35,754 nucleotides of DNA, taken from the NCBI GenBank assembly GCA_018065035.1, contig JAGHUC010000068.1, positions 1-35,754 of the forward strand, given 5' to 3'. Positions 12,126 to 12,771 of the stretch are shown in pieces (the stretch's first letter is position 1; each line of letters starts with the position of its first letter). The notes under the pieces are model-generated. The model was not told the origin of the DNA. It did no database searches and was given only the letters and a program-made list of their open reading frames with translations. The translations under genes were made by a program, and so were the position numbers. This stretch comes from Candidatus Egerieousia equi (GTDB taxonomy: Bacteria; Bacteroidota; Bacteroidia; Bacteroidales; UBA932).

Positions 12126-12254
12126 GGTAAGACATCAGTAAAGTGCAGTAGAAAGAAGTTTCTCAAGCCTCCAGCAAGTTCGCGCCCTCCGCTAGGCCGC
12201 TGAACGGTACAGGATTCGCCCTTTTCCTGTACGAAACATCTGTTCTTGCTTGTG

Positions 12255-12337
12255 ACGAGCAGGTTTGACCCCTAAACCTGCTCGTTTAGCGGAAATCTTG
12301 CTGATTTGAGCAGGTTTGACCCCTAAACCTGCTCGTT
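12255..12337 (+). repeat. two copies of a 28-nt hairpin repeat (GAGCAGGTTTgaccccTAAACCTGCTC) separated by a 23-nt spacer
   Basis: A perfect 10-bp inverted repeat occurs twice and is followed by T-rich sequence. The same family as the tandem array at 25146-25335. Confidence 0.8.
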
Positions 12338-12771
12338 CTATACAGACTGCACCCGTTTTCTGTCTGAAATAGCTGGTTCCGCCAGTTCTACTCAGATTAA
12401 TTCAATCATTTTTCTCCAAGCGGCCGAAATATCAATCATTTTCCGGACGCAAAAGACATTATGGCCGAGAAATGGTCATATTTTCGGCCAAATGGCAAAA
12501 AAATCACCGTTTCGCCGAAAAATCGCCGATATTTCGGCCGTACTCAACTGATCCGTCCCGAAATAATCAAGAATAAGCCCTATCGGGGGGAGCGAAACCG
12601 GCCTTTTTGCACCCCGATAGTGTCACAATAAATGGAGTTTCACGAGTGTTTGGGGTGCGAAAGTGCCCTTTCTGCACCCGGAGCGGAGGTTCATAAGCAA
12701 GGAGGTTAAAAGATATCGGTCAATGAGTTCGGCATCTTGCATTTATTGGGGGGCGTGGTTATCTTTGTGTT

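What the first reader, a model, noticed from the sequence alone, without database searches (positions are those of the whole stretch)
12126..12771. 645-bp ORF-free, palindrome-dense region upstream of the HAD hydrolase gene: candidate ncRNA or regulatory cassette
There is no ORF of 60 aa or more on either strand. The region contains the two family B hairpins, three copies of GGCCGAAATAT or its reverse complement (12421-12434, 12462-12490, 12527-12541) and GTACAGG...CCTGTAC. It also has a CTATCGGGG...CCCCGATAG stem (12581-12620) and an interlocking GGGGTGC/GTGCCC/GCACCC trio (12651-12690). This density of inverted repeats in a gap of this size within a compact genome suggests a structured RNA, a binding-site cluster or a decayed MITE. 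The HAD gene's own TAtcTTTG box (12760-12767) is only 4 nt from its ATG, so its transcription signals may also be atypical (leaderless or promoter further upstream).
Basis: seen in the sequence. Interest (0 to 1): 0.5.

Follow-up and report, generated by a model that had tools for sequence, protein, structure and literature searches.

The report
Strain-variable cluster of hairpin repeats
The ORF-free gap upstream of the HAD hydrolase gene is a patchwork of short hairpin-forming repeat units that differs from strain to strain, so it is most likely ordinary REP-like repeat DNA and not a conserved non-coding RNA or regulatory cassette.

Summary
Window 12126-12771 has no ORF of 60 aa or more.

The window is a contig of the horse-gut MAG 'Candidatus Egerieousia equi' (Bacteroidales). 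There is no Rfam match, no coding signal and no phage or plasmid match.

Twelve independent assemblies of the same locus show unit-wise gain and loss:
- family-B units number 1 or 2;
- GGGTGC/GCACCC hairpins number 1 to 3, or are replaced;
- one assembly has an extra GGCCG hairpin;
- two assemblies carry different insertions (about 690 nt and at least 780 nt) of other repeat families at 12203/12204.

One close relative (HAD DNA 98% identical) has unrelated sequence in this gap. There the B, GTACAGG and GGCCGAA units lie upstream of the 72-aa ORF. More distant relatives lack the gap.

Only the last ~100 nt before the ATG (12668-12771), which include the TAtcTTTG box, are kept in every assembly.

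The GTACAGG hairpin is a diverged family-B unit: three stem pairs changed on both sides and the 51-nt unit length is the same.

My best reading is a lineage-specific REP/BIME-like hairpin minisatellite mosaic. Any function is at most generic, such as RNA 3'-end hairpins or transcriptional insulation. Interest is low to moderate.

The parts
11907..12125 (+). 72-aa ORF that forms the left border of the gap. It is probably a small two-helix membrane protein with a weak DUF308 match.
   Evidence: The Pfam DUF308 match has E = 3e-4, which is below the curated cut-off. The ORF is intact in all strains, although most substitutions change the amino acid. Homologues of the same 72-aa length exist down to 44% identity.
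12126..12203 (+). Non-repetitive 3' flank of the 72-aa ORF. Its right end, 12203/12204, is the junction where the strain-specific insertions begin.
   Evidence: It is 98.7% identical in L008 and L010. The insertions in L010 and L014 start exactly after 12203/12204. Logan contigs from two samples end at 12199.
12204..12254 (+). A 51-nt 'G' unit: the GTACAGG...CCTGTAC hairpin (12207-12232) plus its spacer. It is a diverged family-B unit.
   Evidence: The hairpin is confirmed. It aligns with family-B hairpins with three stem pairs changed on both sides and 100% of cells paired. It scores 37.8 bits with the B/G covariance model. A second G unit is present in L010, L014 and L022.
12255..12305 (+). 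Family-B unit 1: a 12-bp-stem hairpin (12255-12285) plus a 22-nt spacer. This unit is absent from three of the strains.
   Evidence: The 51-nt unit is deleted in L008, L009 and L010 and present in L014 and L016.
12306..12337 (+). Family-B unit 2 (hairpin 12308-12334).
   Evidence: It is present in all strains that cover it, with base changes only in the loop.
12338..12419 (+). Non-repeated linker with two small hairpins (about 12342-12363 and 12371-12388).
   Evidence: The span-limited local fold is. No other copy exists in the window or the fetched loci. It is absent from L022.
12420..12541 (+). GGCCGAAA hairpin cluster ('E' units): E1 at 12422-12446 (degenerate), E2 at 12462-12490 and E3 at 12514-12538. 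In this allele a 12-bp long-range stem, 12422-12433 / 12528-12539, is also possible.
   Evidence: The number of units varies: L020 has an extra GGCCGGAAAACAGTCGTTTTTTCGGCC hairpin, and L022 has a single unit joined directly to the tail. In L008, L009, L010, L014 and L016 the change T12430A breaks the long stem with no compensating change.
12542..12579 (+). Tail sequence GTACTCAACTGATCCGTCCCGAAATAATC..., which travels together with the E units.
   Evidence: The same tail follows the E hairpin in L020. In L022 it does so too, but there it lies upstream of the 72-aa ORF.
12580..12682 (+). 'D' hairpins: CTATCGGGG...CCCCGATAG (12580-12620) and GGGGTGC/GTGCCC/GCACCC (12652-12682). They form a 65-nt-spaced direct repeat and are the most variable part of the gap.
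   Evidence: There is 1 copy in L008 and L009, 2 in the window and L016, and 3 hairpins in L010, L014 and L015. The first hairpin is replaced by other sequence in L017-L019. L020 has a variant outer stem, AGTTCGGGG/CCCCGAGCT.
12668..12771 (+). Conserved promoter-proximal segment of the HAD gene. It has a cTTG at 12736-12739, then 20 nt, then TAtcTTTG at 12760-12767, which ends 4 nt before the ATG.
   Evidence: It is present in all 12 alleles, including L022, at 93-99% identity. That it acts as a promoter is an inference from the Bacteroidetes consensus quoted in PMC7366714.
12772..13599 (+). HAD-family phosphatase gene (275 aa) forming the right border of the gap.
   Evidence: Pfam Hydrolase, E = 1.7e-18. 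NCBI names it HAD family phosphatase, MBQ0053635.1, Candidatus Egerieousia equi.

Best explanation
The gap is a strain-variable mosaic of lineage-specific repetitive extragenic palindromes. It resembles a REP/BIME cluster or a hairpin minisatellite.

It is built from head-to-tail units. Each unit is a 25-30-nt hairpin followed by a spacer of about 22 nt. The period is 51 nt for the GAGCAGG ('B') and GTACAGG ('G') units and about 40-50 nt for the GGCCGAAA ('E') units. A separate set of GGGTGC/GCACCC ('D') hairpins follows.

Whole units are gained and lost, probably by slippage or unequal recombination between repeats. The block also serves as a landing or exchange site for other repeat families of the same genome.

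Selection, or the process that copies the units, preserves the hairpins and not their sequence. The hairpins are somewhat better formed on the + strand, which is the sense strand of both flanking genes. Any function is therefore most likely generic and at the RNA level, such as 3'-end protecting or attenuating hairpins behind the 72-aa ORF that insulate the HAD gene.

The HAD gene is probably driven by its own promoter in the conserved last ~100 nt.

Shown: the unit structure, recurrence elsewhere, unit-wise polymorphism, hairpin-preserving changes, and loss in relatives. Inferred: the expansion mechanism, the RNA-level role, and the promoter.
For: - Hairpin excess: 9 perfect hairpins against about 1 expected.
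- Recurrence: family B occurs again as a 3.7-copy, 51-nt array at 25145-25335.
- G and B are related: the G and B hairpins align with 3 stem pairs changed on both sides and 100% of cells paired. The three cells that changed on one side are all G-U on the + strand, and none is A-C.
- Orientation: all 7 B/G units in the window, and all those in the fetched loci, score 29-41 bits on the + strand and 12-24 bits on the - strand.
- Unit-wise differences among 12 independent assemblies: a 51-nt B unit present or absent; 1 to 3 D hairpins; an extra E hairpin; and two different insertions (about 690 nt and at least 780 nt) of family-A and family-C-like repeats exactly at the boundary of the G unit.
- Relocation: in L022 the block B + G + G + E + tail lies upstream of the 72-aa ORF, and the gap itself holds unrelated sequence, while the HAD DNA is 97.9% identical.
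- No extra sequence conservation in the gap core.
- Absence in more distant relatives.
- No match in Rfam, Pfam, plasmids, phages or viral contigs.
- Strand asymmetry: the + strand folds more stably than the - strand in 6 of 7 alleles and has more G-U pairs in all 7.
- The definitions of REP clusters, including units reiterated head to tail in tandem, fit (PMC3733652).
Against: - Genome-wide copy number could not be measured. Only 35.7 kb plus overlapping alleles were available, and the E and D units were seen only at this locus and in L022.
- The hairpins lack the GTAG or CGTC end tags of the two large REP superfamilies. No RAYT gene lies in the window.
- The units are all in one orientation, unlike classical BIMEs.
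- The B units do not pass a simple hairpin-plus-T-run terminator scan, so a terminator role is weakly supported.
- The G-U asymmetry rests on very few cases.
- The linker 12338-12419 is not explained by any repeat family.
Confidence: 0.7

Rival explanations
1. The gap encodes a discrete structured RNA. This would be either an independent small RNA or a long regulatory 5' leader (riboswitch- or attenuator-like) of the HAD mRNA. In that case the interlocking GGGGTGC/GTGCCC/GCACCC trio would act as alternative terminator and antiterminator hairpins.
For: The predicted folding is very strong, especially on the sense strand (z = -7.6). In the trio the inner GGGUGC-GAAA-GUGCCC hairpin needs G-U pairs, so it is + strand specific, and it is followed by UUUCU. 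B. thetaiotaomicron has many mRNAs with 5' UTRs longer than 100 nt (13.5%, PMC7366714).
Against: No Rfam family matches, even at E up to 10. The elements differ in number between strains, and the D hairpins are the most variable part. L022 keeps a 98% identical HAD with a different gap core. More distant relatives lack the gap. There is no extra conservation. A consensus promoter box sits 4 nt from the ATG, downstream of all the hairpins.
Confidence: 0.08
2. The GGCCGAAA motifs are a cluster of binding sites for a transcription factor or nucleoid protein that controls the HAD gene or the neighbouring genes.
For: Three exact and two degenerate GGCCGAAA half-sites lie within 120 nt. Two of the arrangements are palindromes whose centres are about 50 nt apart.
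Against: The number of sites varies: one unit in L022 and an extra one in L020. The arms vary while pairing is kept (GGCCGGAAAAC...GTTTTTTCGGCC), which points to hairpins and not to a fixed recognition sequence. In L022 the unit sits upstream of the 72-aa ORF, away from HAD. No regulator gene is adjacent.
Confidence: 0.06
3. The block is a non-autonomous transposable element in the strict sense. It would be either a REPIN mobilised by a RAYT (IS200/IS605-type tyrosine transposase) or a MITE with terminal inverted repeats, here partly decayed.
For: The units are dispersed to at least two loci in the window. The composite block lies at a different position in L022. Insertions of other repeats occur at a precise junction. 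MITE-plus-minisatellite elements exist in Bacteroidales, for example BrickBuilt (PMC4596501).
Against: There is no GTAG or CGTC tag (compared with PMC3733652). The units are head to tail and not inverted pairs. I found no terminal inverted repeats or target duplications at the junctions of the insertions. No transposase lies in the window. The differences between strains are whole-unit copy-number changes, which are typical of recombination or slippage.
Confidence: 0.12

Closest known systems
REP sequences and BIME clusters of Proteobacteria (E. coli, Pseudomonas)
   Same: They are short (20-40 bp) imperfect palindromes that lie outside genes. They occur singly and in clusters, including units reiterated head to tail together with flanking spacer DNA. 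They vary between strains, and stems evolve while pairing is kept. Proposed roles are mRNA 3'-end stabilisation and transcription attenuation (PMC3733652, PMC2817692).
   Different: There is no GTAG or CGTC end tag. The units are all in one orientation and not alternating. The spacers are conserved and give strict 51-nt and 84-nt periods. The host is an uncultured Bacteroidales bacterium. Copy number per genome and association with a RAYT are unknown.
BrickBuilt MITE/minisatellite of Porphyromonas gingivalis (PMC4596501)
   Same: It is a Bacteroidales element that is always intergenic. It is built around a tandem repeat whose copy number varies, has flanking 'leader' and 'tail' parts, occurs in multiple copies per genome and is restricted to one lineage.
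   Different: BrickBuilt has a 23-nt unit with no spacers and small inverted-repeat ends. Here the units are 51-nt hairpin-plus-spacer modules of several subtypes, with no inverted ends detected and no sequence similarity.
Rho-independent terminators and REP-type 3' stabiliser hairpins
   Same: They are stable hairpins placed downstream of a stop codon, in the sense orientation. They are better formed on the transcribed strand.
   Different: The B, G and E hairpins lack the T-run needed for a consensus intrinsic terminator. They also occur in tandem arrays far longer than one terminator requires.
CRISPR arrays
   Same: Both have regularly spaced palindromic repeats.
   Different: Here the 'spacers' are conserved between units (95% matches in the 25145-25335 array). 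No cas genes are nearby. The arrays are very short.

Membership tests
REP / BIME | Short (20-40 bp) imperfect palindromes located outside genes | tested here: met
   The hairpins are 25-31 nt long, and the CTATCGGGG hairpin is 41 nt. All lie in the ORF-free gap or in the 25124-25434 gap.
REP / BIME | High copy number across the genome (typically more than 100 copies) | not testable with these tools
   Only the 35.7-kb window and overlapping alleles were available. They hold 7 B/G units at 2 loci. The species is absent from the genome and JGI collections that were searched.
REP / BIME | GTAG or CGTC tetranucleotide tag at one end of the palindrome | tested here: not met
   The flanks of the units read TTCGAGCAGG...CCTGCTCGTTTTGCC and CGGTACAGG...CCTGTACGAAAC. 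Neither carries a consistent GTAG or CGTC tag (definition from PMC3733652).
REP / BIME | Regularly spaced REPs in alternating orientation (classical BIME) | tested here: not met
   All B/G units match the model best on the + strand, so they are arranged head to tail.
REP / BIME | A RAYT transposase gene flanked by the same palindromes | not testable with these tools
   No transposase-like domain is found in any ORF of the window. The rest of the genome was not available.
MITE | Terminal inverted repeats and target-site duplication bounding a defined element | tested here: inconclusive
   The junctions of the L010 and L014 insertions at 12203/12204, and the ends of the 12204-12579 block, show no clear inverted ends or duplications. 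However, no clean pair of empty and filled sites for one single element was available.
Known structured RNA family (Rfam) | Match to a curated covariance model | tested here: not met
   There is no match at the gathering score for the whole window. At E up to 10 there are only chance-level eukaryotic microRNA and snoRNA hits.
Conserved cis-regulatory leader or sRNA | Sequence and structure retained at the orthologous position in relatives | tested here: not met
   The gap core is replaced in L022 and absent in UBA1751 and L023. It is no better conserved than the coding DNA, and it is variable unit by unit.
Intrinsic terminator | G+C-rich hairpin followed directly by a T-run | tested here: not met
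   The consensus scan flags none of the B, G, E or D hairpins on the + strand. The tails are TTTTGCC or TTTAGCG, with 3-4 T.
CRISPR array | Constant repeats separated by unique spacers, with cas genes nearby | tested here: not met
   The spacers are conserved between units, and there are no cas domains.

The most novel reading that the evidence does not exclude
The 51-nt hairpin-plus-spacer units may be a family of mobile or self-expanding hairpin repeats in uncultured Bacteroidales that has not been described and does not depend on a RAYT. Their hairpins would be selected at the RNA level on the sense strand. Their strain-to-strain copy number (1 to 4 units, plus swapped-in families) would tune transcriptional read-through and mRNA stability of neighbouring genes. 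That would make them a population-level expression rheostat in front of HAD.
Probability: 0.1. Interest if true: 0.55.

Novelty: new member of a known kind. Interest (0 to 1): 0.28.

Why it matters
In practice, the result removes a false lead. The dense palindromes are not a new riboswitch or small RNA. They are repeat DNA that breaks short-read assemblies: contigs from two samples end at 12199 and one starts at 12718. Such repeats inflate apparent 'structured' intergenic regions in MAGs.

Biologically, it documents several co-resident hairpin-repeat families in an uncultured horse-gut Bacteroidales lineage. They have strict 51-nt and 84-nt periods and are not documented in the REP, RAYT and MITE papers I consulted. 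They change unit by unit between strains and could serve as strain-typing markers.

If the hairpins act on RNA, they would be an entry point to studying 3'-end formation in a phylum whose terminators and leaders are still poorly mapped.

Tried and rejected
- Rfam at the gathering score and at E up to 10 gave nothing meaningful.
- Pfam on all nine small ORFs of the gap gave nothing. The 56-aa ORF is not on record as a called gene.
- BLAST of the gap against plasmid and phage collections gave no match.
- Scans of viral contigs with a B pattern and an E pattern gave none.
- The JGI metagenome scan with the family-B pattern returned only three unrelated single hairpins in contigs of about 55% G+C. 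The family therefore looks lineage-restricted, but no genome-wide census was possible.
- The genome-collection search with the HAD protein found only one relative, UBA1751 at 71% identity, with different synteny.
- MAFFT on whole 51-nt units misaligned the 3' arms of the G and B units. I redid the alignment on hairpin cores.
- The covariance model of the B/G hairpins found no hidden extra copies. It did not recognise the E or D hairpins as members.
- A CRISPR reading was rejected because the spacers are conserved and no cas genes are present.
- A pseudogene reading was rejected for lack of any coding signal, although I ran no large-database translated search.
- The terminator scan did not flag the repeat hairpins.
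- The perfect 12-bp long-range stem 12422-12433 / 12528-12539 is specific to this allele. Five other strains carry T12430A with no compensating change.

Full report
**Origin and setting**

The HAD protein encoded at 12772-13599 is identical to NCBI MBQ0053635.1, 'HAD family phosphatase [Candidatus Egerieousia equi]'. That is a Bacteroidales MAG whose longest contig for this protein is 35,754 bp, the length of the window. The genus comes from gut metagenomes and the species from horse faeces (PMC8957277).

The window is ordinary chromosomal DNA. It carries genes for methionyl-tRNA synthetase, DnaG primase, RlmN, fructose-1,6-bisphosphatase, an ABC transporter and others, and no transposase.

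The gap lies between two genes on the + strand:
- **Left border:** a 72-aa ORF at 11907-12125. It has a weak DUF308 match, is intact in all strains, and has 72-aa homologues down to 44% identity.
- **Right border:** the HAD gene.

It is the largest intergenic gap in the window.

**Check of the observation**

No ORF reaches 60 aa.

The palindrome density is well above chance. There are 9 perfect hairpins (stem of at least 7 bp, loop 3-30 nt) against 1.06 +/- 1.0 in 500 dinucleotide-preserving shuffles. That is 13.9 per kb against 2.2 per kb for the whole window. The whole gap folds with z = -7.6 on the + strand and -3.9 on the - strand.

**Anatomy**

The gap is a chain of hairpin units.

- **G and B units.** From 12204 there are three consecutive 51-nt units:
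  - a GTACAGG unit (12204-12254);
  - two GAGCAGG 'family B' units (12255-12305 and 12306 onwards).

  Family B recurs at 25145-25335 as a clean 51-nt tandem array of 3.7 copies.

  The GTACAGG hairpin is a diverged B hairpin. The cores align over 26-27 nt, three stem pairs differ on both sides (A-U/U-A, G-C/A-U, U-A/A-U), and all 111 cells form pairs. This amounts to one subfamily split, not many independent events.
- **Linker.** A non-repeated linker follows at 12338-12419.
- **E hairpins.** Three GGCCGAAA hairpins lie at 12422-12446, 12462-12490 and 12514-12538, followed by a tail (GTACTCAACTGATCCGTC...).
- **D hairpins.** Two GGGG.GC...GCACCC hairpins are part of a 65-nt-spaced direct repeat at 12587-12617 and 12652-12682.
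- **Orientation.** A covariance model of the B/G hairpin finds exactly the seven known units in the window. All match best on the + strand (29-41 bits against 12-24 bits), and there are no hidden copies.

**Comparison with other strains and relatives**

This is the decisive evidence. Look-ups of identical or near-identical proteins gave twelve independent assemblies that overlap the gap.

Aligned to the window, they differ by whole units:

| Feature | Variation among assemblies |
|---|---|
| First B unit (51 nt) | Missing in L008, L009 and L010; present in L014 and L016 |
| D hairpins | One (L008, L009), two (window, L016) or three (L010, L014, L015) |
| First D hairpin | Replaced by other sequence in L017-L019 |
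| Outer stem of D hairpin in L020 | A different but still pairing stem (AGTTCGGGG/CCCCGAGCT) |
| E hairpins | L020 has one extra, with changed but pairing arms |
| Insertions at 12203/12204 | About 690 nt in L010 and at least 780 nt in L014; the two differ from each other |

The two insertions sit exactly at the boundary of the G unit. They are made of other repeat families of this genome: family A as at 16129, 17129 and 22792, and 84-nt-period family-C-like units as at 35434-35616. Each also carries a second GTACAGG unit.

Logan contigs from two samples end at 12199, and one starts at 12718. This is what one expects at polymorphic repeats.

Single-base identity of the gap core to the window is 95.9-99.2%. 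That is no better than the flanking genes at 97-99%.

L022 is the most telling case. Its HAD DNA is 97.9% identical, but its 500-nt gap shares only the last ~104 nt with the window (12668-12771). A compact block of B + G + G + E + tail lies upstream of its 72-aa ORF.

More distant relatives lack the gap altogether. UBA1751 (HAD 71% identical) has a different upstream gene and a 228-nt gap without these repeats. In L023 (72-aa ORF 44% identical) a GH20 gene follows directly.

**What it is**

The evidence fits a lineage-specific cluster of repetitive extragenic palindromes. Its units expand, contract and are exchanged as modules.

It does not meet several defining features of the classical families:
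- there is no GTAG or CGTC tag;
- the orientation does not alternate;
- no RAYT gene is in view.

Its genome-wide copy number could not be measured. I therefore describe it as REP/BIME-like and not as a member of those families.

Within Bacteroidales the nearest described parallel is the BrickBuilt MITE/minisatellite of Porphyromonas gingivalis (PMC4596501). BrickBuilt shares the intergenic, copy-number-variable, leader-repeat-tail logic but not the unit structure.

**How it probably works**

The following points are shown:
- Hairpins are preserved through sequence change, both between the B and G units and between variants of the E and D hairpins.
- The three cells that changed on one side only in the B/G alignment are all G-U on the + strand, and none is A-C.
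- The + strand folds more stably than the - strand in 6 of 7 alleles and has more G-U pairs in all 7. The means of the shuffled sequences are equal for the two strands of the window gap.

From this I infer that the hairpins matter, if at all, in the sense-strand RNA or in that single DNA strand. They may act as 3'-end protecting or attenuating structures behind the 72-aa ORF, as proposed for REP and BIME elements.

They are not consensus intrinsic terminators, because the T-run is too short.

Slippage or unequal recombination between 51-nt units is the simplest mechanism for the copy-number changes. This was not tested.

**The HAD promoter**

The only part of the gap kept in all alleles is 12668-12771. 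It contains cTTG, then 20 nt, then TAtcTTTG, which ends 4 nt before the ATG.

This resembles the Bacteroidetes TTTG / TAnnTTTG promoter quoted in PMC7366714. The usual spacing between the two elements is from my own memory of the literature.

In the window, other TAnnTTTG boxes sit 16-40 nt (one about 75 nt) from their start codons. This one would therefore give a leaderless or nearly leaderless mRNA. In B. thetaiotaomicron that class is only about 3.7% of mRNAs.

The ATG at 12772 must be the real start. The protein begins MIKAIVFDMGG, and Asp8 corresponds to the nucleophilic aspartate of HAD motif I (established knowledge of the HAD superfamily). The 267-aa version called by several pipelines starts at Met9 and would lose that residue.

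**Verdict**

This is a new example of a known kind of thing, of modest interest.

Noticed in passing
window 16129-16217, 17129-17217, 22792-22880; L010 2745-2835, 7366-7446, 8452-8537: 'Family A' is an 89-nt nested palindrome that lies 3-56 nt after the stop codons of three + strand genes. Its outer arms (GCGGCAGTCACT / AGTGACCTGCCG) and its loop (TTTCCGGGG) are conserved. Its inner stem changes with compensation (AAGCGCC/GGCGCTT against TTCCGCC/GGCGGAA) and is followed by a T-run. It looks like a repeated, possibly bidirectional, terminator module. A copy is also part of the L010 insertion into the gap.
   Followed up: partly
window 35407-35616 and 16224-16263; L010 about 2900-3350; L014 364-576: 'Family C' consists of hairpins (GTGCTCAAACCCC...GGGGTTTGCGCTCA) in 84-nt-period tandem arrays, with a conserved CTGATAATCAATA spacer. 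Variant units with the stem GTGCTCAATAC...GTATTGAGCA make up much of the strain-specific insertions at 12203/12204.
   Followed up: partly
L008 3247-4964, between window 14639 and 14648: Strain L008 carries an extra 376-aa Amidohydro_2 gene on the opposite strand, between the 300-aa ORF and the transglutaminase-like gene. It is absent from the window.
   Followed up: no
window 12772-13599 compared with L010 4001-4828: The HAD gene of L010 is only 88% identical in DNA, while its flanks are 97-99% identical. This suggests a recombination mosaic centred on this locus.
   Followed up: no
window 13330-13599: The HAD protein has a C-terminal extension of about 70 aa with hydrophobic stretches. It is 275 aa against 209 aa in UBA1751, with a weak DUF2207_C match. 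Several pipelines call the gene from Met9 (267 aa), which would remove the catalytic Asp8.
   Followed up: partly
window 11907-12125; L022 263-571: The 72-aa ORF is not annotated in the NCBI record behind L010. One Logan call replaces it with an antisense ORF. In L022 the ORF and its flanks are only about 82% identical, while the adjacent HAD is 98% identical, and the repeat block lies on its other side. The ORF may itself be part of an exchanged cassette.
   Followed up: partly
L014 1-300: The L014 insertion begins with yet another repeated motif, GT(A/G)CAAGGT...ACCTTG(T/C)AC, reiterated about six times at spacings of roughly 25-45 nt.
   Followed up: no
window 19379-19784: This is the second-largest gap in the window (406 nt). 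It holds a 21-nt inverted repeat, 19407-19427 / 19519-19539 (90% complementary), and a 9-bp hairpin at 19583-19605. I did not examine it further.
   Followed up: no
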